A stretch of 14,548 nt of DNA, from positions 1 through 14,548 of the forward strand of contig CAVYBU010000028.1 in NCBI GenBank assembly GCA_963766735.1. Reading direction: 5' to 3'. The DNA is from an uncultured Chloroflexia bacterium. Lineage in GTDB: Bacteria > Chloroflexota > Limnocylindria > Limnocylindrales > CSP1-4. Positions 1-12,183 of this stretch are shown piece by piece. The stretch's first letter is position 1. Each line of letters begins with the position of its first letter. A model generated the notes under the pieces. The model was not told the origin of the DNA and made no database searches. It was given only the letters and a program-made list of their open reading frames with translations. Made by a program: the position numbers and the translations under genes.

Positions 1-181
1 AGCGCGCGCCGAGTTCGCGATCGTCCGGCCGACGGGTCGGAGCTACACCACGTCCTTCAGTGTCATCGTCCTCGGGGCGCCGGCGGCTCGCTCAACCACT
101 TCGTGCCCTTCGTGGCCAGGTCCCATCATGCGGCCGCCACCGCTACGGGGATCGCCGACGTGACCTGATAGCGCCTCTGTG

Positions 182-1221
182 TCAAACGACGATGTGGTTC
201 TGGCGCCGAGCGTGGTCCTCGAGGAGATGGCGGTAGACGACGTTGGAGAGCTGGCGCTTGAGGCTGCGCTGGGCTTCTCTGGGGGTCTTCAGCTCGGCGA
301 TCTTGCGCTCGTAGTGATCTCGTCCCGGTCCGCCCCGGGTACACCTGAACGATCGCCGCCGTGTGCAGGGCGCTGTTGAGCTGGCGGTTGCCGGCTCGGT
401 TCAGGCGATGGCGGCGAAGGTCGCCGCTGGAGGCCTCGACGGGGGCCGTTCCGGTGTAGCTCGCGAAGTGCGCCTTGGACGCGAAGCGGGTGATGTCGCC
501 GGCGTGGCCGATGATCTTGGGCCGCCAGGATGAAGCCGATGCCGAGCACCTCGGGCAACGACGAGCGGGCGGCGATCACCGCCTCCTCGATCTCCTTGGC
601 CAGCTGCTTGAGCTGGAGATCGGCCCGCCGCAGATCGTCGATGAGCTGGCGGGCGATCCGCTTGCGCTGGTGATCGGTGGTCGTCATCGGACGCACCTTG
701 GCGAGGAAGACGCGCGCGGCGGCCGTAGAGATCTGTCGGGGCGCCCCGCCGGCAACAAGCTCCCGCAGCAGGACCTGGAGGCGATTCATGGTGCGTGTGC
801 GCTGGGCGACGATGTCATCTCGCCGGTCCGACAGCAGACGCAGGACAGTGGTGTCGTCCTCGGCGTGGACCACGGACAGCTTCGGGTTGTGGATGGCGAC
901 CGAGGCGACCGAGGCGCCATCGGTCAGATCTGTCTTTCGGGAACTGCCCGAGCCCAGCAGGCGAGCCCGTGCCGCCAGCGTGGCCGGGACGTCTACGACG
1001 TGCTCGCCTGCGGCCACCAGCGCCTGGGCAACGCCATGGCCAAGCCCGAGTGCGCCCTCCACCGCCCAGACCCGCACCGGCCAGCGCCGTGCCCAGGCGA
1101 TCAGCTCGTCCGCGGTCGTGGTCGTCGCGGCCAGCCGCCGCTGGCCGAGGAGCGTGCTGTTCGCATCGAGGGCGGCGGCGGTGAGGCTGGCCTTGTGGGG
1201 ATCGATGCCGATGGTGATCAC
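182..1221 (-). pseudogene. IS110 transposase/bridge recombinase A with two frameshifts (~521, ~340)
   Basis: GIDPHK, AVEG and RKTDLTD form the DEDD RuvC-like motifs. After the shifts it reads KIIGHAGDITRFASKAHFASYTGTAPVEASSG..HRLNRAGNRQLNSALH..HYERKIAELKTPREAQRSLKRQLSNVVYRHL, ending at TGA 182-184. GTG start with a GAGAGG RBS. Confidence 0.92.
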
Positions 1222-1224
1222 GCG

Positions 1225-1438
1225 ATGCCTCTCGTCGGGTGGAAGAAGCCCGCGACGGGCAGCCTGACTTCAGGGGGTCACACGCCTCTGTTGAGCCACG
1301 TCACGGCGGGCGCCGAGTGGATTGGGCGGGCTATCAGCGAGTCACCCGAGGGGACAAGGAGCGATGCGAGCCACCCACCCGGCGCCCTGAGCACGCTAGG
1401 GCTGCAGACCCAGCGGCATGGGCTCATCCAAACAAGTC
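1225..1438 (-). ncRNA. Putative bridge RNA of IS110-A
   Basis: About 215 nt non-coding left end. It contains target guides CGCTCCT (1357-1363) and CTGATAG (1331-1337), then donor guides ACAGAGGCG (1283-1291) and AAGTCAG (1264-1270), in the canonical LTG-RTG-LDG-RDG order. Confidence 0.85.
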
Positions 1439-1511
1439 AGGAGCGTGGCTGCGCCCCCACTGATGTGTGCCCACCGGCCGGTCCTGTCACCCGCTCACGA
1501 CGAGAGGCGAC

Positions 1512-2574
1512 ATGGACATGGTGATGATCGGGATCGACGCCCACAAGCGAACGCATACCGCGGTGGCGATCGACGAGCGCGGGCGCCAGCTGGCGAGCCG
1601 CACGACCGAGGCGACGACGAGCGCCGCCAACCTGGAGCTCGTCCGTTGGGCTGACGGGCTCGACCCTGATCGGGTCTGGGCGGTCGAGGACTGCCGGCAG
1701 CTCTCGCGTCGCCTGGAGGCAGACCTGCTCGCAGCCGGCAGGCGGATCGTGCGGGTCCCGCCCAAGCTCATGGCCCACGCGCGCGACGCCGCCCGCAGCT
1801 ACGGCAAGTCCGACCCGATCGACGCCCTGGCGATCGCCCGCGCCGCCGCCCGTGAGCCCGATCTGCCGGTCGCCCACCTCGATGAGGTCGCCCGCGCCCT
1901 GCGGCTGCTGGTTGACCACCGCGAGGACCTGCTGGCCGAGCGAACCCGCCACATCAACCGCCTTCGCTGGCATCTGCACGAGATCGATCCCGCCTGGGAT
2001 CCCAAGCCGCAGGCGCTCATCACCTACAAGCATCTGGCCCATCTGCACCGACCGGCTCGAGGGCCTGGAGAGCGTCGTCGGCGCGGTCGCGCTCGACCTC
2101 GTCGCACGGGTCCGGGCGCTCACCTTCGACATCCGGCGCCTCGAGACCGAGATCGCTGAGCGCACCGCGAAGGTCGCACCGGCGCTCCTTCGGGTTCACG
2201 GTGTGGCGGCCCTGTCGGCGGCCAAGATCATCGGCGAGGTCGCCGGGGTGGCGCGCTTTCGCTCCCGCCACGCCTTCGCGCGCCACAACGGCACGGCGCC
2301 GCTTCCGGTGTGGTCGGGCAACCGCCGCCGCCATCGGCTCTCGCGAAGCGGCAACCGCCAGCTGAACGCCGCCCTGCATCGGATCGCCGTCACCCAGGCG
2401 CGCGCCTTCCCCGAGGCGATGGCCTACCTCGAGCGCCGCCAGGCCGACGGCAACACCCGCACCGAGGCGATCAGGGCTCTGAAGCGACGGCTCTCCGACG
2501 TCGTCTTCCGCGCCCTCGTGGCCGACGCCGCCGCTGCCGCCGACGGAGGTCAGCCCGGCGGCCGATTGACATAG
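1512..2574 (+). pseudogene. IS110 transposase B with one frameshift (~2047)
   Basis: GIDAHK, AVED and GKSDPIDA in ORF 1467-2159. It continues in ORF 1852-2574 as AKIIGEVAGVARF..GTAPLPVWSG..HRLSRSGNRQLNAALH..AIRALKRRLSDVV. GAGAGG RBS before ATG 1512. Confidence 0.92.
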
Positions 2575-2717
2575 GAGTGATGGGGCCTAACTACCGGGAC
2601 ACCCGGCAACCGACGACTCTACGAAGGTCGCCGACCACTCCATTCTGTCTAGGACCCCGATCTTTGCTCAACGCTTCTCAGAACGCGGGGGCGACAAGCA
2701 GTGTCCGGTCCGCATCT

Positions 2718-4142
2718 CTAGCCCGTGGGTTCGAGCGGCGGCACCGGAATCTGCATCGGCTCGCGCTCTTCAGGGTCCGGCAGGCGCCCGTCGCGCAGGG
2801 CGCCGAGGAGCTCCAGCGGGTCATGCACGAACCAGGTGCTCTGGGTCTGACCCGTGCGCTGGGCGGTGAGAAGGGCCGCCTCATAGGAGAGGACCTCATC
2901 CAGGTATTGGATGGCGGGCCGGCGTTCGGCGAGAAAGGCTGCAAACCCCTCAGCCTCACGCGTGGCAAAGAGCTCGGGATCGGTCGTGCCCCAATGCTCC
3001 TCCATCAAGGACCACAGGCCGGCCTTGCCGAGGTTCACGACGATCAACTGGCACGTGAGGGGCATGGTTCCGATGCACATCCCAGCCCGTGCCTCAAGTG
3101 AGAGCTGGCGAGTCAGACCCAGCCCGGGATCCGCCTGCAGCTGCCTTTCGAGATCGCTTGTGGCCAGCCTGCCAGTGAGGAGGTTACCAAGGGTGGCCTC
3201 CCACTCGTCGGGCGACGGCCCGGGCGGTGGGGCGCTCTCGATCCGCGTCGGCAACGGGTGCGGATGGTGGGGACCAGCTCCGCCTAGATCACGTAGCTGC
3301 CAGATCTCGCCGAGGGACACCAGTTGGGCGGCGACCCCCTCGAGACCGAGCCGTCCGATCATCTCCGTCTCAAGCTCGAAAGTGATGGCGCGCAGGTTCG
3401 GAAGCAGCGGCACCGCCACGCGCGCGAGCTCGAGCAGGGGCTCATCGAGAAAGCCCGAGTGGGAGTCGAGCAGGTAGCCGTTCAGCTCCATCCCCGCGGC
3501 TACGTGGATCTCCCAGACCCGCTCCAGAGGTAGCTCGGAGATGAACTCGAGAGCTGGCTGGCGGCCGTTGGTCTCGTTCACGTGCAGGTTGTGGAGATCG
3601 AGCAGGATCCCGCAGTCCGCCGCGTCGGCGATCGCCGCGACGAATGAGCCATCGGGGATCTCGTCGGGTCGCGGCTTCAGATAGCTGACGCCGGTCTCCA
3701 CGGCGAACGGCACCGGCAGATCGGCTGCGAGCCGGCGTATCGCGTTGGCCGCCCGATCCACGCCCTCGGTACTCTGGCGCAAGGGGAGCATCCAGCCGGC
3801 GCAGCTCGTGTCGTCGCCTCGGCGGACCGTGTTGAAGCCGAGATGCTCGCTCGCCCAGGGGGCCTCGAGGTCTTCGATGAAGCGGCGCAGCAGATCCACC
3901 GCGATGGGGTCAGGATCACACGCTCCCCCGAGCGGGAACCCGACCCCATGCACGAGGACTCGCTGCGGTAGCGCCGCCAGGCGCTCGATCGCTCCCCGGC
4001 GAACTCGATAGCCGTCGTCGGTCGCCGTCCACAAGGTCTGCGGCTCGACCTCGACCATGGTCGCGAGCGCGGTGTCGTCCTCGAGTAGCGGCGACAGCGC
4101 ACTGGACCACACGATACCCACTCCGAGTTCGGGGAGCTTCAT
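2718..4142 (-). CDS. DUF692 / multinuclear non-heme iron oxidative enzyme (MNIO; MbnB/TglH/ChrH family) with a fused C-terminal DUF2063-like partner domain
   Basis: Iron-ligand motifs appear in the family order: LVHG, WASEHL, AVET, LLDLHN, EIHVAAG, LDSH, FELE. A Pro/His linker follows, then ~170 aa with MP..LG..L..P..F..FL...YL.EV..YEAA. Confidence 0.9.
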   Translation of the reverse strand: MKLPELGVGIVWSSALSPLLEDDTALATMVEVEPQTLWTATDDGYRVRRGAIERLAALPQRVLVHGVGFPLGGACDPDPIAVDLLRRFIEDLEAPWASEHLGFNTVRRGDDTSCAGWMLPLRQSTEGVDRAANAIRRLAADLPVPFAVETGVSYLKPRPDEIPDGSFVAAIADAADCGILLDLHNLHVNETNGRQPALEFISELPLERVWEIHVAAGMELNGYLLDSHSGFLDEPLLELARVAVPLLPNLRAITFELETEMIGRLGLEGVAAQLVSLGEIWQLRDLGGAGPHHPHPLPTRIESAPPPGPSPDEWEATLGNLLTGRLATSDLERQLQADPGLGLTRQLSLEARAGMCIGTMPLTCQLIVVNLGKAGLWSLMEEHWGTTDPELFATREAEGFAAFLAERRPAIQYLDEVLSYEAALLTAQRTGQTQSTWFVHDPLELLGALRDGRLPDPEEREPMQIPVPPLEPTG

Positions 4143-4150
4143 CGAAAGGC

Positions 4151-4402
4151 CTACTGGCCCGGCAGGCCGAAGCTCGGCACCTCGGTGAGCTGCAGCTTCG
4201 GTCCCACGACGACATCGTTCATGTGGAGGAAGGCGAAGTTGCGTCCGGAGAAGCAGCTCGGACAGCCTGAGAGCTTCAGGAGGTTCTCAGTGAGCTGGTG
4301 AACCTGCGCTATATCCATTGGTGCCGCTGGCAGGTGGACATTGATGGTAGGGACGGCCTGCCCCAGCGCCACTCCCTGCTGGGACTGCTGGATTCGCTGC
4401 AT
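4151..4402 (-). CDS. Putative MNIO-modified RiPP precursor peptide with a GCPSCFSG core (83 aa; alternative start 4435)
   Basis: Small ORF ending 8 nt upstream of the MNIO start on the same strand. Its only two Cys form a CxxC (motif at 4244-4267). A GAAGGG RBS precedes ATG 4402. Confidence 0.75.
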   Translation of the reverse strand: MQRIQQSQQGVALGQAVPTINVHLPAAPMDIAQVHQLTENLLKLSGCPSCFSGRNFAFLHMNDVVVGPKLQLTEVPSFGLPGQ

Positions 4403-4778: not shown

Positions 4779-6429
4779 CCCGGATCGTGCAACAGGCTCC
4801 GGGAATCACCTGTCGGGCATGACGTAGGGGCGCGATGGCGTCGTTCGCGGCAGGCGCGTCAACAAGAGCGGCTGCGGAGTGCTCGCGGGCGCTCTTGGGC
4901 ACGGCCTGGAGGGCGTTCGCGGCCAGGCGGGATCGCCCGCGCCGCCGACTCCTCGACCTCGCGAGGCCCCCCGCAGTCGCTACCCGGGAGCGGGCAAGGC
5001 GCGCAGCACCGAGAAGGCGGCGAGCAGATCGGCCGCCCACGGCCAGCGTGCGGGAAGGTGGAGCCGGATCCGTCGCCCCGAGCGGGTGATCCGCCCGGCG
5101 ACGTGCAGCAGCCGGTAGCGAAGGCGCTTGGGCTCACAGCGAGCGAGATCGCCGTCCAGAAGGAGCGTCTGGGCCCAGCTCATGAGGTCCTGGGCGATCA
5201 GCACCAGCTCCAGCCAGGCCGCGTTCGCGGTGAAGTCGCGAAAGGGCAGGTTGCGCAGCCCTGAGTCCTTGGCGGCGCGGATCGCGTCCTCGACCCTCGC
5301 CCGGGCCCGGTGGCGGGCCTCGAGGACGACCGGATCGCCCTCGTGGTTGGTCAGCATCACCTGGAAGCGGTGGCCGTCGGCATCGCTGAAGGTGAGCTGG
5401 GCGCCCGGGTGGGGACGCTCACGCCGACAGATCGCCCGCGATCCCTGGGGCCATCGCGACAGATCGAGGTCGCGAAGCTCGGTCACCCAGGCCCCCTCGC
5501 GCTCGGCGCCGTCTTGTCGGATCGCCGGTGCCCATGCGCTCTCAGGAAGCGCGAGGATCACCGCTCGAGCGCGCTCGTCGATGGGCATGCTCGCCGAGAA
5601 GGCGCACTCCATCTCGACAGCCGCCTCGATGAAGGCGTGGGTGCAGCCGGCCGAATCGGTGCGCACCAGAATCGGGGTGCCCTCGTCCTCACGTACCGCC
5701 TCGGGCAGCTGATCGAGCGCATCCACCAGCACCCCGATGTGGTCGGCGGCGGTGTTGGCGCCGGCGTTGCCGGGCCGAAGGACGCCCGCCAGGGGCTCAC
5801 CACCCAGGTAGCAGAGCATCGGATGGAAGCCGAAGCCGCGCTTGTAGGTGGGGGCGGCGCCCTCCTTGTCCGAGTGGGCGCTGAGCAGGGTCGCGTCGAT
5901 GTCGAGGACGATCTCGGTGGGCTGTGCGCCCAGAGCCCAGGCGCGCTCACGGGCGCGCGCCCGGGCGGCGCGGATCGCCACGAGGCGCTCGGCGTCGATC
6001 GAGTCGATCACCCGAAAGGCGGTCGAGTCCGAGGCGACCGCCCCGAACAGATCGACCTGATCGCGAAGGGCCCCCAGATCGGACAGGCAGTCGCCGCCGC
6101 CCGCGAGCATGACGGCCAGGTCGCGGACGACCCGCCCGGGGTCGTGGGCCGAAGGGCGCTCGCGAGTCGGCGCCAGCGCCGCGCCAAGGCCCGCTGTCAG
6201 CCCGAGCCGGTCTGCCAGCTCGCTGAGGAGGAGGCCCCCGGCGTGGGAGGCCACCGACGTGTCATCCGCGAGCACTTGTAGCGTCTTCTTGCACGTCCGA
6301 CGCATCACCTTCACGGTGATCCTCCTGGGCGGGGTGTGATCGAGATTCGACACCCCGATTCTCCCCGCCCAGTCGGACATCTCGGCGAACGCCCGACCTC
6401 AACCGCCGTCGGCTAACGAATGATCCGGG
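4779..6429 (-). mobile_element. IS1380-family insertion sequence, complete
   Basis: Terminal IRs CCCGGATCGTGC (from 4779) and CCCGGATCATTC (reverse, ending 6429). CTAG target duplication at 4775-4778 and 6430-6433. Confidence 0.92.
4980..6314 (-). CDS. IS1380-family DDE transposase (intact)
   Basis: Motifs SHAGGLLL, LDIDAT, KRGFGFHP, LRPGNAGAN, VRTDSAG, RRERPHPGAQL, HRARARVEDAIR and KRLRYRLLHVAGRI. AGGAGG RBS before GTG 6314. Confidence 0.95.
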   Translation of the reverse strand: MKVMRRTCKKTLQVLADDTSVASHAGGLLLSELADRLGLTAGLGAALAPTRERPSAHDPGRVVRDLAVMLAGGGDCLSDLGALRDQVDLFGAVASDSTAFRVIDSIDAERLVAIRAARARARERAWALGAQPTEIVLDIDATLLSAHSDKEGAAPTYKRGFGFHPMLCYLGGEPLAGVLRPGNAGANTAADHIGVLVDALDQLPEAVREDEGTPILVRTDSAGCTHAFIEAAVEMECAFSASMPIDERARAVILALPESAWAPAIRQDGAEREGAWVTELRDLDLSRWPQGSRAICRRERPHPGAQLTFSDADGHRFQVMLTNHEGDPVVLEARHRARARVEDAIRAAKDSGLRNLPFRDFTANAAWLELVLIAQDLMSWAQTLLLDGDLARCEPKRLRYRLLHVAGRITRSGRRIRLHLPARWPWAADLLAAFSVLRALPAPG

Positions 6430-9212: not shown

Positions 9213-9642
9213 CAGTGGCTCTATCGCCCGCCGCGTCACCGCGACCTCTGTCTCGAGCTCGCCGATCCGCGGCCGAGCGGCCGACAGCTCGGCGATCTCC
9301 GCGCTGGTGGGCCCGGCGATGAGGCCCTTGTCGATCGCCTCCTGACGGCGCCAGACGTAGATCGTCTGGTTGGGGATCCCCAGGTCGCGTGCGACCTCTG
9401 CCACGCTCTTGCCCGCGCCTAGCTGTCCGACCTACATAGGTTCCGAACGCGACTGATCGGAGCCTGACCGCCGAGGGCGCTGTGGGGTCGCCGCTCGTTG
9501 TAGTGGCTCAGCCAGTATCGCAGCGCCCTCTGGCGGTGGCGGTGGGAGAGGTAGAGCATCCCGTAGGCCCATTCGCGGGCCATCGTCTGGTGGAAGCGCT
9601 CCACCTTGCCGATGCTCCTATGGGCGTCAAGCCCATGCTGGT

Positions 9643-10692
9643 TCAACCGATCACGGGCGCCTCCAGGATCCGAAAGAGGCGCCGAGCGAGGTAGCGCACC
9701 AGGCAGCGCTTGATCTCCCGGGGGCTCTTGCCCTCGGCGGCGCGACGAGCGATGTAGTCGCGCGTCGGCGGGTGACCCGCGCGGATGCGGCACACGAGGA
9801 TCGTGTGCAGCGCGCGGTTGAGTTGGCGATCGCCACCGCGATTGAGCCTGTGGCGCACCACCATGCCCGAGGAGGCGGGAATCGGCGAGGCGCCCGCAAG
9901 CGCGGCGAACGCGGCCTCCGAGCGCAGTCGACCTGGATGCGACCAGGCCAGGAGAAGCCATGCCCCGGTGATCGGCCCAACGCCGGGCTCCTCCAGCAAC
10001 GCCGGTGGCGCCAGGAGCGTCACCAGCACGGCCATCCTCTTCTCGAGGCGATCCGCTTCGGCCTGAAGGGCAAGAACACGTCGTGCCAGGCTGCGCAGGG
10101 CCTCGGCGGTCGCTTGGCGCTCGAGGTCTTGGATGCGCGCAGGCCGCAGGCCCGCGCAGCGGCGAAGAAGGGCGAGCGGTGGTAGCCGGCGGAGCTCGGT
10201 GCGGAGCTCGTCATCGCAGGTCACGATCAGCGCCCTCAGCTGCTGCAGGGCCGGGCGGTGGGCCCGCATCGCTCCGTCGCGGGCGAGCATGAGCGTGCGC
10301 AATCCCTCGCGGGCGCCGCGAGCACGCGGGTCGGCCAGCCGTCGCACGAGCGCCTCCCGGGCGGCCCGCTCGGCATCTAGCTCGTCATCCTTGGCGCCGT
10401 TGCGCCGCGCCGGCCGTCGGGGCCGGTCGACCTCACCGACGTGCTCCCCGAGTGCTTGGAGGTAGGCAAGGAGTCCGGCGCCGTAGCTGCCCGAACTCTC
10501 GATCGCCCAGAGCCGTGGGCCGGGAGCAAGATCGCGCGCCGCCCGCAGGGCCGCGGCGTACCCACGCCGGTCGGCACCGATGCGCAGGGTGTGTCGCAGG
10601 CCGCCCTGGCGATCGAGTACCGCGATCGCATGCTGATCGCGATGAGTGTCGACGCCGATGACGTATTCGGCCTGATCGGCCATGATCTGCAT
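9643..10692 (-). CDS. IS110 transposase/bridge recombinase C (intact, 349 aa)
   Basis: Motifs GVDTHRD, AIESSGSYG, KDDELDA, PGVGP, PIPASSG, HRLNRGGDRQLNRALH and RCLVRYLAR. AGGAGA RBS. Confidence 0.95.
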   Translation of the reverse strand: MQIMADQAEYVIGVDTHRDQHAIAVLDRQGGLRHTLRIGADRRGYAAALRAARDLAPGPRLWAIESSGSYGAGLLAYLQALGEHVGEVDRPRRPARRNGAKDDELDAERAAREALVRRLADPRARGAREGLRTLMLARDGAMRAHRPALQQLRALIVTCDDELRTELRRLPPLALLRRCAGLRPARIQDLERQATAEALRSLARRVLALQAEADRLEKRMAVLVTLLAPPALLEEPGVGPITGAWLLLAWSHPGRLRSEAAFAALAGASPIPASSGMVVRHRLNRGGDRQLNRALHTILVCRIRAGHPPTRDYIARRAAEGKSPREIKRCLVRYLARRLFRILEAPVIG

Positions 10693-10699
10693 TGGGTCT

Positions 10700-10955
10700 C
10701 CTTTGCCGGGGGCCTTACGGTGGCCGGCCTGGACGGGAAACCGCGCGGGCAGGACTGTGATGGGTCACGCCGTGGAAGCGGCGGACAGGCTCCGGATCAG
10801 GCCAGCGTGCGGGCGCCAGGCCGGCGCCGACGACCACAGACAGACGAATCGGCAAGAAGGCCACCCCGCGTTGCGGAGCGCCAATTGGTGCGTGAGTCAT
10901 GTCCACGGCCATCGACGCCACCCTCGCAGCGGCCGTCCAGAGCCGCTGTGTCACC
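10700..10955 (-). ncRNA. Putative bridge RNA of IS110-C
   Basis: Guides ACCAA (10885-10889) and CTTGCCG (10850-10856) match the target ACCAACGGCAAG. GGAGC (10789-10793) and TCACAG (10755-10760) match the element ends. Confidence 0.75.
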
Positions 10956-12183
10956 CTCACAGTTGGTCTGGGGCCGGTAGGGACGCGTCACCAGGTGGCG
11001 CACGCCGCGCTCGGCGAGCAGATCTGCCAGGGAGCGGTTGCGGGTGTAGGCCCAGGCGCCGTCGCTCATGAGCCGGCGGGCACCCGATGCCGCGGCGCGC
11101 CGAACCAGGACAGGGCGCGCTCGACGAAGGCGGTGACGGTGCCCGCGCGCTCGTCGTCGTGCAGCTCGACGTAGGCCAGGCGTGAGTGGTCATCGACGAT
11201 GCAGTGGGCCTACTGGTAGCCCCAGCGCGCGTCCTTCTCGGCGCGGGTGCGATCGCGCACCCCGGTCAGGGCGTGGCCGGGGCGCTCGAAGCGGGCATAG
11301 CGCTTGGTGTCCATGTGCAGCAGGTCGCCCGGACAGGGCCACTCGTAGCGGCGCACCGGCTCACGCGCGGATCGTGCGGGCCGCGAGAAGCCATGGCGAT
11401 GGAGCACCTTCCAGACGCTCGAGTGCGCCAGCCCGAGCTCGCCCGCGATCAGGCGCGGGCCCCAGCCCGAGCGCCGGCGGGCCAGGACGATGCGGGCCTG
11501 GGCGAGCGGGCTCATCAGGCGCGGTTGTCGATGCGGGCGCGAGGAGCGATCGCAGAGGCAGGCGAGCCCCCGGCGCTCTGTCGACCGAGGCGGCCCTCCA
11601 GCGCGCGACCCACGCGAAGGCCGTTGACACGCTGCATCTGAAGGCGGCTGCCGCCTCCCTGAAGCTGTGGCCCTCGGCGTCGACGAAGAGCACCAGATCG
11701 AGACGGCCGCGCGCCGTGAAGCGGGCGTTAGGGTGCTGCATTCCGGACCTCCCGGAGGTCGTAGGCGTCAGACACCCACAGCCTCTCGGGAGGCCCGGAC
11801 TACTTCTCAGGCGTTCGGAACGTCTGTAGGCGGGTCACCTAGCAGGTCGAGCACCCTGCGACGGAACTCGGACGGGTACCTCTTTGGCATGGCTCTCTCC
11901 TTCGAGAGTCAGCGGCGCGAGCTTCCCAGTAGAGCGACTCCGCGAAGGCCAAGGAAGACCAGCGACGACTCCACGAAAGCCGCCTCTCTGCTTCTCCGAC
12001 TGTCGAAAGGCGTGGGAACGCCAGAACCTTGTACCCACCACGTCGCCATCGTGACAAGCGGCATACGCGGCGATATTCTCGCGCTGATGTGCAGAGCGTG
12101 TTTGGACGTCCCGTCGGCGCTCTGTGCGGTCAGTCCAGCCGCCACGGTGACGGCGGGTGTCGATCACATTTGGAGGTAGCACC

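What the first reader, a model, noticed from the sequence alone, without database searches (positions are those of the whole stretch)
160..1470. An IS110 whose bridge RNA is programmed against another IS110's bridge RNA
Seen: excising 172-1440 restores CTGAT-AG-GAGCG (minus strand CGCTC-CT-ATCAG). IS110-A's non-coding end carries CGCTCCT and CTGATAG, a perfect 12-nt two-part guide for that site, followed by donor guides matching its own ends. The site overlaps ATAGGAG, the left donor guide of IS110-B, which matches B's right end TTGACATAGGAG. Known: IS110 (IS621) bridge RNAs have this LTG/RTG/LDG/RDG layout and a CT core. Inference: A is a programmed parasite or competitor of B-type elements. 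It hits a sequence B cannot easily mutate without also changing its donor end, and so disables B's RNA.
Basis: partly seen in the sequence, partly recalled or inferred. Interest (0 to 1): 0.92.

Follow-up and report, generated by a model that had tools for sequence, protein, structure and literature searches.

The report
IS110 homing into another's bridge RNA
One RNA-guided jumping gene sits exactly inside the guide-RNA gene of a related jumping gene, and its relatives in many other microbes sit at the same spot, so this lineage appears to be set to land in its cousins' guide RNA.

Summary
Window 172-1440 (minus strand) is an IS110-family element, A. It lies inside the 5' non-coding end of a second IS110 element, B (57-2577, plus strand).

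A's non-coding end folds into an IS621-type bridge RNA. Its target loop carries CGCTCCT and CTGATAG. By the published pairing rules these specify CGCTC-CT-ATCAG, which is exactly A's insertion site. On B's strand the site reads CTGAT-AG-GAGCG. That is B's left donor guide, and it repeats B's right end (..ATAGGAG).

All 25 uninterrupted B-type copies found in the genus carry the site unbroken. In a census not chosen by flank, 23 of 29 distinct A-type insertions lie at this position, one lies in a B-type right end, and five lie elsewhere. The host elements fall into several clades with under 50% protein identity. Near-identical A-types sit in distant hosts, so the hits are repeated events.

Not shown:
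- Guide-target covariation within the family was not significant.
- That B is disabled, and the "parasite" reading, are inferences.
- Both window copies carry frameshifts.

I found no description of this in five literature searches. It is a new variant of a known kind.

The parts
172..1440 (-). IS110-family element A (includes one copy of the CT core at 1439-1440)
   Evidence: Junctions read. 68% nt identity over its whole length to an intact relative in L002. Pfam PF01548 on its N-terminal part.
170..171 (-). Second copy of the CT core (AG on the plus strand) at A's right junction
   Evidence: The same CT flanks every A-type relative.
1222..1440 (-). A's left non-coding end, which encodes the bridge RNA (two stem-loops, each with an internal loop)
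   Evidence: Alignment of 17 A-type ends. Consensus fold and pair counts.
1357..1363 (-). A left target guide CGCTCCT, equal to the top strand of left flank plus core
   Evidence: Pairing rule from PMC11208160.
1331..1337 (-). A right target guide CTGATAG, the reverse complement of core plus right flank CTATCAG
1283..1291 (-). A left donor guide ACAGAGGCG, equal to A's own right end
   Evidence: Aligned columns 162-172.
1264..1270 (-). A right donor guide AAGTCAG, the reverse complement of CT+GACTT at A's left end
182..1221 (-). A transposase gene, GTG start at 1221, broken by single extra bases at about 519 and about 337
   Evidence: Three-frame translation. Related contigs lack these bases (table 4).
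57..2577 (+). IS110-family element B, interrupted by A
   Evidence: Left boundary: homology with L160 and with a contig of run X1 stops at 57, and the alignment to relatives starts there. Right end read. Pfam hits.
57..171 (+). B left non-coding end, first piece: target-binding loop and the 5' arm of the donor-binding loop, ending ..CTGATAG
   Evidence: alignment. consensus fold of the B clade.
165..171 (+). First half of A's target, which is the first part of B's left donor guide (CTGATAG)
1441..1445 (+). Second half of A's target, which is the rest of B's left donor guide region (GAGCG)
1441..1511 (+). B left non-coding end, second piece, with the right donor guide CACTGA (1458-1463), the reverse complement of B's left end TCAGTG (57-62)
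122..128 (+). B right target guide CCCATCA, the reverse complement of B's right flank TGATGGG (2578-2584)
   Evidence: Read; position in the loop.
1512..2574 (+). B transposase gene, broken by one extra base at about 2041
   Evidence: table 4: contigs of 4 runs lack the base.
2566..2577 (+). B right end TTGACATAGGAG; its last 7 bases repeat B's left donor guide
   Evidence: The same end is seen in relatives.

Best explanation
A (172-1440, minus strand) is an IS110-family insertion sequence of the IS621 type. Its recombinase is steered by a bridge RNA encoded in A's own left end.

Shown here:
- The RNA has a target loop and a donor loop.
- The target loop's two guides (CGCTCCT, CTGATAG) spell the site CGCTC-CT-ATCAG, where A sits.
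- The donor loop's guides spell A's own ends.
- The site lies in the bridge-RNA gene of a second IS110 element, B. It falls on the stretch that serves as B's left donor guide and that repeats B's right end (..ATAGGAG).
- A belongs to a widespread lineage found in Limnocylindrales/Chloroflexota records and in two Actinomycetota records.
- Members of that lineage sit at this same position in several B-type clades that share under 50% protein identity. Very similar A-types occur in very different hosts, so the site has been hit many times independently.

Inferred:
- A arrived by bridge-RNA-guided recombination between its circular form and this site.
- The insertion cuts B's donor-binding loop in two, so that B copy can no longer make a whole bridge RNA in cis.
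- The lineage gains a landing site that is harmless to the cell, multi-copy, itself mobile, and slow to change. The site is slow to change because it must stay equal to B's right end. Damage to B is the consequence.

In this window both A and B carry frameshifts, so the pair is probably a fossil, or carries assembly errors.
For: Anatomy and guide matches:
- Junctions, the CT core on both sides, and 7/7 plus 7/7 guide matches.
- Pairing rules (5' guide equals the top strand; 3' guide is the reverse complement; core included) read in PMC11208160.
- Clean insertion: B's two pieces abut exactly in 8 uninterrupted relatives.

RNA structure:
- 17 A-type ends give 44 pairs, 97% of cells paired, and 11 pairs with compensatory change. 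0 of 500 shuffles reach this, and slid controls give 35-56% paired.
- The target guides lie on the two sides of one internal loop.
- In the B-clade fold the site lies on the 5' side inside the second stem-loop.

The target in uninterrupted elements:
- The site is contiguous in 25 of 25 uninterrupted copies, about 13 distinct elements.
- Right ends of 9 of 11 host elements read ..ATAGGAG. One was cut by a contig end and one was not found.
- L065's host and L207 read GGAGG in both guide and right end, which is covariation between the two.

Census (searches did not use the flank: protein scan, right-end pattern):
- 33 A-type loci collapse to 29 distinct contexts.
- 23 are at the donor-guide site. 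Of these, 14 have a divergent IS110 transposase start 68-129 nt away, 7 have extended similarity to verified B-type ends, and 2 have only 17-19 nt of similarity.
- 1 is in a B-type right end. 5 are elsewhere.
- 0 of 64 chance pattern hits show the flank motif.

Independence of events:
- A-type identity and host identity are decoupled. For example L058 and L063 are 90% identical as A-types but their hosts are 35% identical.
- 6 of 11 pairs with at least 80% A-type identity have hosts under 50% identical. Spearman 0.08 over 45 pairs.
- Between the window and L160 the A parts are 97.7% identical (333 of 341) but the B parts only 86.1% (99 of 115).

Family membership: Pfam PF01548 and PF02371. The intact relative matches the solved IS621 and ISCro4 transposases.
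Against: - Guide-target covariation within the family is weak. Cognate and non-cognate matches are 7.75 vs 7.48 of 9 (left) and 5.25 vs 5.22 of 9 (right); permutation 1194 of 20000.
- Most relatives keep CTCATAG although their target reads ATCAA or ATCAG. At the one variable right-guide position I counted only 5 of 12 matches by eye.
- 5 of 29 contexts are not in B-type elements (L061, L064, L067, L068, L152).
- The 29 contexts are not 29 independent events, because some hosts are close relatives.
80 of 120 hits were handed over, and 64 of those 80 were chance matches.
- A and B are frameshifted and single-copy here.
- Nothing measures recombination, RNA expression or loss of B activity.
- A bridge RNA can act in trans (PMC11208160, passage), so an interrupted B could still be moved by an intact copy.
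- Rfam has no match for either RNA.
Confidence: 0.8

Rival explanations
1. One ancient accident. A landed in B once, and the A-in-B composite has since been inherited or moved as a unit, so the repeated picture reflects descent rather than targeting.
For: Some contexts are clearly the same composite: L059 and L117 equal L058, L071 equals L060, and L161 equals L135. L160 carries the window's composite at another outer location, which could mean the composite moved as a unit.
Against: Host transposases fall into clades with 29-47% identity while their A-types are 84-90% identical. The A parts of the window and L160 are 97.7% identical but the B parts only 86.1%. The guides spell the site. Uninterrupted copies of every host clade examined exist.
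Confidence: 0.03
2. Loose half-site targeting. A-types land at any ..GCTC|CT.. sequence (the reverse of a ribosome-binding-like AGGAGC), and B's donor guide is just one common instance rather than the programmed target.
For: The five insertions outside B-type elements share the left half GCTC|CT and little on the right. A 2026 preprint (10.64898/2026.08.31.748434; abstract and section 8 read) reports that one matching arm plus the core can suffice for IS621. Right-guide matches are often only CTAT.
Against: AGGAGC-like sequences are abundant in any genome, yet 24 of 29 contexts are in B-type elements. The flank similarity runs beyond the left half: AT[C/G]A[A/G]G[T/C]CAC is seen in 13 of 16 metagenome A-type loci and 0 of 64 chance hits. 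In the window both arms match 7 of 7.
Confidence: 0.07
3. Vehicle rather than victim. A-types use B-type elements as a carrier. The interrupted B is still moved by RNA and recombinase supplied in trans from intact B copies, so A spreads with B and does B little harm.
For: Both of B's ends stay intact after A's insertion. Bridge RNA works in trans for IS621 (PMC11208160, passage). The window's composite occurs at a second outer location in L160.
Against: The A part is much more alike than the B part between the two locations, which fits separate A insertions better than one composite that moved. No genome seen here holds two copies of one composite. No intact B copy was found in this assembly.
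Confidence: 0.15
4. Assembly artefact. The nesting is a chimeric join of two repeats in a metagenome-assembled contig.
For: The contig is IS-rich and the three frameshifts could be assembly errors.
Against: The same junctions occur in independent records. L160 and a 539-nt contig in runs X1 and X2 span window 57-513 across the A/B right junction. Dozens of related loci show the same architecture with the CT core on both sides.
Confidence: 0.01

Closest known systems
IS621 (E. coli) and its bridge RNA (Durrant et al. 2024, PMC11208160; structures 8wt6 and others)
   Same: The recombinase has two domains (PF01548 plus PF02371). The RNA is encoded in the left end upstream of the gene. It has two internal loops, with left and right target guides and left and right donor guides. 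The core is CT and is included in each pairing. The 5' guide equals the top strand and the 3' guide is its reverse complement.
   Different: IS621 targets REP elements of the chromosome (passages). Here the target is the donor-guide segment of another IS110's bridge-RNA gene. Protein similarity to IS621 is remote (E 1.4e-9, C-terminal part only).
IS4321/IS5075 and the attC-targeting IS1111-group elements (Partridge & Hall 2003; Post & Hall; seen only as entries in the reference lists of PMC11187229 and PMC11208160)
   Same: These are members of the wider IS110/IS1111 family that insert at one fixed position in a conserved sequence of another mobile element.
   Different: Those are IS1111-group elements, with the RNA downstream of the gene and subterminal inverted repeats. 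Their targets are transposon inverted repeats or integron attC sites. They do not target the guide-RNA gene of a related element of their own kind.
REP-targeting IS110 elements ISPpu9 and ISPpu10 (PMC12288879; 10.64898/2026.03.19.712850; abstracts seen in the listing)
   Same: They home to a short repeated sequence present in many copies per genome.
   Different: REP targets are host sequences. Here the repeated sequence belongs to a competing mobile element and is tied by base-pairing to that element's own end.
Nested self-splicing introns (twintrons) and other mobile elements that home into mobile elements (recalled; no call)
   Same: One selfish element is specialised to live inside another.
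   Different: The chemistry is different, and there is no guide-RNA-against-guide-RNA relation.

Membership tests
IS110 family, IS110 group (IS621-type bridge recombinase elements) | N-terminal DEDD RuvC-like domain (PF01548) | tested here: met
   A N-terminal part scores E 6.3e-19 and B N-terminal part E 1.5e-28. The D, E and D..D motifs are readable.
IS110 family, IS110 group (IS621-type bridge recombinase elements) | C-terminal Transposase_20 domain (PF02371) with the conserved Ser | tested here: met
   B C-terminal part scores E 4e-17. The intact A-type relative aligns to ISCro4 and IS621 chains across the SG motif. The window A's own C-terminal part was read only by eye across its frameshifts; Pfam was not run on it.
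IS110 family, IS110 group (IS621-type bridge recombinase elements) | Non-coding end upstream of the gene that encodes an RNA with two stem-loops, each with an internal loop | tested here: met
   for the A-type (11 compensatory pairs, 0 of 500 shuffles) and for the B clade (57 pairs, 11 compensatory).
IS110 family, IS110 group (IS621-type bridge recombinase elements) | Loop 1 guides match the left flank plus core (same strand) and core plus right flank (reverse complement) | tested here: met
   Window A matches 7/7 and 7/7. Relatives match 5-9 of 9 on the left and 2-7 of 9 on the right.
IS110 family, IS110 group (IS621-type bridge recombinase elements) | Loop 2 guides match the element's own right end and left end | tested here: met
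   A: 9 nt and 7 nt. B clade: ATAGGAG and CACTCAG or CACTGA.
IS110 family, IS110 group (IS621-type bridge recombinase elements) | Short core dinucleotide on both sides and no terminal inverted repeats | tested here: met
   CT lies at both junctions of A and of every A-type relative with visible ends. For the B clade the dinucleotides at the two junctions differ (C/G-T on the left; CA, TG or CT on the right) and were not resolved.
IS110 family, IS110 group (IS621-type bridge recombinase elements) | Excision to a circle and RNA-guided insertion | not testable with these tools
   Only contigs of public runs could be laid.
IS110 family, IS110 group (IS621-type bridge recombinase elements) | Match to a curated RNA family | tested here: inconclusive
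   No Rfam 15 match in window 1-3000 at E up to 1. I do not know whether Rfam holds a bridge-RNA model.
IS1111 group | Guide RNA region downstream of the transposase gene, with subterminal inverted repeats | tested here: not met
   In A, and in the B clade, the structured RNA with all four guides lies upstream of the gene. Only about 10 nt follow A's stop codon.

The most novel reading that the evidence does not exclude
An arms race between IS110 lineages is fought through their guide RNAs. The A-type is a hyperparasite whose target loop tracks the donor guide of its cousins. B-type elements escape only by changing guide and right end together.

Hints seen here:
- L159's host has a changed guide (..ATAGAAGG..), and its A-type's left guide matches the changed site 9 of 9.
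- L098's host has an extra C in its guide, and there the A-type sits in the right end instead.
- The third IS110 in this window (element C) has lost the TAG of the site in its guide and is unoccupied.

More broadly, IS110 elements in these genomes may be set as a rule against conserved sequences of other mobile elements. Element C splits the PQTN|GKVERF motif of another transposase gene.
Probability: 0.25. Interest if true: 0.85.

Novelty: new variant of a known kind. Interest (0 to 1): 0.68.

Why it matters
Bridge RNAs are known as a way for IS110 elements to pick a chromosomal site, usually a repeat. Here the chosen site is the guide-RNA gene of a related element, at the one short stretch tied by base-pairing to that element's own end.

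If this holds, it is a natural case of one RNA-guided mobile element specialised on another of its own kind. That would give a concrete system for studying conflict and dependence between transposons:
- Who disables whom.
- Whether the host element can escape.
- Whether the composite moves.

It would also explain nested IS110 pairs that annotation pipelines report as two adjacent transposase genes.

For people who engineer bridge recombinases it offers a family with a fixed natural target and many natural target variants. It also offers natural examples of insertions that match only one arm of the guide.

Tried and rejected
- Rfam scan of window 1-3000 found no family.
- Single-sequence fold of A's end was uninformative (z -1.71; 9 of 200 shuffles fold as well). 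The alignment fold was used instead.
- After I read the G/C difference between the window's and L002's right guides as a compensatory change. Over all loci it holds in only 5 of 12, counted by eye. The permutation test on guide-flank matches is not significant (1194 of 20000), so I dropped it as evidence.
- Pattern scan of metagenome contigs: 64 of the 80 loci handed over are chance matches without an A-type gene. I used them only as a negative control.
- Public runs:
  - No run holds half of the words, and no RNA holder is listed.
  - All laid runs are contigs.
  - No joint from 171 to 1441 (B without A) was among the listed joints.
  - None of this bears on expression or on whether empty sites exist in the source population.
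- The core dinucleotide of B-clade elements could not be settled, because the left and right junction dinucleotides differ. I left it open.
- Search for relatives of the third IS110, element C, in the genus found only one, at 48% identity. Whether C's odd donor guide is an escape variant therefore stays open.
- Literature. Five searches and passages of PMC11208160, PMC11187229, 10.64898/2026.08.14.744561 and 10.64898/2026.08.31.748434 gave no description of an IS110 that targets another IS110's bridge RNA. Supplementary tables of natural target sites in those papers were not opened and may list such cases.
- No structure or complex prediction was run, because no claim here needs one.
Full report
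**What is there**

The window is a whole 14.5-kb contig of a 3.6-Mb draft genome. Positions 172-1440 on the minus strand are an IS110-family element, A.
- Its N-terminal 227 residues match Pfam PF01548.
- In A's orientation the junctions read ..GCCACGCTC|CT|GACTTGTTTGG at the left and ..ACACAGAGGCG|CT|ATCAGGTCACG at the right.
- A lies inside a second IS110 element, B, on the plus strand. B's gene at 1512-2574 matches PF01548 and PF02371.
- B's right end is TTGACATAGGAG (2566-2577).
- B's left end starts at 57. Homology with a related metagenome contig (L160) and with a contig of run X1 stops there, and the alignment to intact relatives begins there.
- Both elements are single-copy in the assembly.
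- A has single extra bases at about 519 and 337, and B has one at about 2041. Related contigs lack all three (table 4). These are either recent mutations or assembly errors.

**The guides**

Durrant et al. (PMC11208160, passages read) state the pairing rules.
[quoted passage not shown] In A's left end:
- CGCTCCT (1363->1357) equals left flank plus core.
- CTGATAG (1337->1331) is the reverse complement of core plus right flank.
- ACAGAGGCG (1291->1283) equals A's own right end.
- AAGTCAG (1270->1264) is the reverse complement of CT+GACTT at A's left end.

**RNA structure**

A single-sequence fold was uninformative. I then aligned 17 A-type left ends, the window's and those of 16 other loci. The consensus fold has 44 pairs, and 97% of cells are paired. 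Eleven pairs show changes on both sides; 0 of 500 shuffles reach that, and slid controls give 35-56% paired.
- The first large stem-loop has an internal loop. Its 5' side holds the left target guide and its 3' side holds the right target guide.
- The second stem-loop holds the two donor guides.
- Eight uninterrupted B-clade left ends fold the same way, with 57 pairs and 11 compensatory changes.
- In that fold A's target, CTGAT-AG-GAGCG on B's strand, lies on the 5' side inside the second stem-loop. This is B's left donor guide, and it repeats B's right end ATAGGAG.

**Is the site intact in uninterrupted copies?**

A protein search of all 70 genomes of the genus found many IS110 copies. By tblastn they fall into a clade near B (59-67% identity over the N-terminal 176 aa) and a clade near the host element of L002, here called B' (59-73%). 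B and B' are only about 39% identical over the N-terminal 170 aa.
- All 25 uninterrupted copies examined (about 13 distinct elements) carry ..[C/T]T[G/C]ATAGGAGC[G/T]TGGC.. contiguous, 80-89 nt before the start codon.
- 24 of the 25 show a right end ending ..ATAGGAG; in L057 it was not found.
- B's two pieces abut exactly on these relatives.

**Where do A's relatives sit?**

In one genome of the genus (L002) an intact A-type lies at the same position of a B'-clade element. It is 68% identical to A in nucleotides and 54.6% in the N-terminal protein.

The A-type protein has more than 120 clusters at 71% identity or above in public data. I ran two searches that did not use the flank.
- A protein-pattern scan of one genome per species gave 17 A-type loci, 16 with a visible end.
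- A scan of metagenome contigs used the 16-nt right end plus core. 80 of 120 hits were handed over; 16 are A-type and 64 are chance matches.

With the window this makes 33 loci and 29 distinct contexts.
- 23 contexts are at the donor-guide site of a B-type element.
  - 14 have a divergent IS110 transposase start 68-129 nt from the junction.
  - 7 have extended similarity of the other flank to verified B-type ends.
  - 2 have only 17-19 nt of similarity.
- One (L098) is in the right end of a B'-type element, at TTGACAAGAT|AG, which is the same motif in its other place.
- Five are elsewhere (L061, L064, L067, L068, L152). Where the left flank is visible (four of them; L152's is not) it is GCTC|CT, with little match on the right.
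- None of the 64 chance hits has the B-type flank motif.

**One event or many?**

Over ten loci with both proteins readable, A-type identity and host identity are unrelated (Spearman 0.08 over 45 pairs).
- 6 of the 11 pairs whose A-types are at least 80% identical have hosts under 50% identical.
- For example, L058 and L063 are 90% identical as A-types, but their hosts are 35% identical.
- The window's nearest A relative (L086; 66% over the N-terminal 227 aa, 68% over the first 170) sits in a host only 32% identical to B.
- L160 carries the window's A in a B relative at a different outer location. The A parts are 97.7% identical (333 of 341) and the B parts 86.1% (99 of 115). This fits separate recent insertions of A better than one composite that moved.

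The site has therefore been hit repeatedly, in records titled Limnocylindrales, Chloroflexia, Acidimicrobiales and Solirubrobacteraceae.

**What is weak**
- Within the A-type family the guides hardly vary, and they do not track the small differences among targets. Cognate and non-cognate matches are 7.75 vs 7.48 of 9 (left) and 5.25 vs 5.22 of 9 (right); permutation 1194 of 20000.
- Most relatives have CTCATAG, yet many targets read ATCAA or ATCAG. Often only CTAT pairs on the right. That is within the 4-7 nt reported for the 3' guide, but it means the 12-nt perfect match of the window is not the rule.
- Single cases go the other way. L159's left guide matches its unusual flank 9 of 9.
- Nothing here measures activity, expression or the fate of B.

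**How it most likely works**

A-type elements excise, form the donor junction that their second loop recognises, and recombine with the DNA that encodes the left donor guide of a B-type element. They occasionally use the identical motif at B's right end. This follows by homology with IS621; the intact relative matches solved IS621 and ISCro4 transposases.

The insertion splits B's donor-binding loop, so that copy cannot produce its own complete RNA. That step is inferred.

The motif is the most conserved short stretch across B-type clades. Guide and right end must stay alike, and L065's host and L207 show them changing together (GGAGG in both). That makes the motif a dependable, multi-copy, host-neutral landing site.

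The A-type's own donor guide (..ATAGAGGCG or ..ACAGAGGCG) differs from the target at several positions, so it should not hit itself. This is inferred.

Whether the relation is best called parasitism, competition or hitch-hiking cannot be decided here. A bridge RNA can act in trans (passage), so interrupted B copies might still be moved by intact ones.

**Comparison with what is known**

IS110 elements are known to target repeats such as REP (passages). IS1111-group members are known to target transposon inverted repeats and attC sites (reference lists). A target inside the bridge-RNA gene of another IS110 did not turn up in five full-text searches or in the passages read. Supplementary target tables were not seen.

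The elements pass every sequence-level test of IS110-group membership that I could run. They are not IS1111-type, because the RNA lies upstream of the gene. I rate this a new variant of a known kind: known machinery with a new kind of target.

**Verdict**

Interest is 0.68.

Noticed in passing
window 9611-10961 (minus strand), flanks 9430-9610 and 10962-11200: A third, intact IS110 element (C; gene 9643-10692, PF01548 plus PF02371) splits an rve/IS481-like transposase gene exactly within its conserved PYRPQTN|GKVERFHQT motif. C's RNA carries CTTGCCGAT (10856->10848), the reverse complement of its right flank ATCGGCAAG. At the donor-guide position C reads CCTGATCCGGAGCC. This lacks the TAG of the A-type target and no longer matches C's own right end CATAGGAG.
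   Followed up: partly
L033, L044, L049 (G081); L035, L045, L050 (G080); L039, L046, L051 (G087): In 9 of 9 copies of these B-clade elements the right end ..TAGGAG is followed by 7 nt and then ATG or GTG. The left flank has TAGACT or TACC.. 4-5 nt before the element. They appear programmed to land just upstream of start codons and to bring an AGGAG with them. I recall similar behaviour for IS900-type elements, but no call supports that.
   Followed up: partly
L041, L048, L052, L054, L056 (G090): Five identical B-clade copies sit in a palindromic repeat (..GTTGGGTCGCC | CAACCGGCGACC..), a REP-like target.
   Followed up: no
L063, right-end flank of the host element: The B-type host of this A-type has its own right end next to sequence reading ..NAVAESFFASLETELIDR, which looks by eye like an IS3-family transposase motif. 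If so, this is three levels of nesting. No Pfam search was run.
   Followed up: no
L098 (oriented) 1-500 and about 11000-11800: Here the A-type sits in the right end (TTGACAAGAT|AG) of a B'-type element whose own donor guide reads TTGATCAGGAGC, with an extra C. This may be a guide variant that no longer offers the target.
   Followed up: partly
L117 (oriented) 7-4224: This locus has the same B' context as L058, but about 3.6 kb of unrelated DNA lies between the A-type transposase gene (7-549) and the last 35 nt or so of its right end. It may be an expanded or interrupted A-type.
   Followed up: no
L062, right junction: The right flank reads CT|GACTGAGGCCACGG where relatives read CT|ATGAGGCCACGG. 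This is a 3-for-1 base difference right at the crossover.
   Followed up: no
window about 337, 519 and 2041: All three frameshifts are single extra bases. The two in A fall in runs of C on A's coding strand. Contigs from other metagenomes lack them (table 4).
   Followed up: partly
window 2718-4142 (-), 4980-6380 (-): There is an MbnB/TglH/ChrH-type RiPP modification enzyme gene (E 1.9e-36) and a DDE_Tnp_1_4 transposase gene (E 1.1e-75). The contig is rich in mobile elements.
   Followed up: no
L002 1-400: The B' element that hosts the intact A-type relative appears, by eye, to interrupt a transaldolase-like gene after ..EGIKTN. No family search was run.
   Followed up: no
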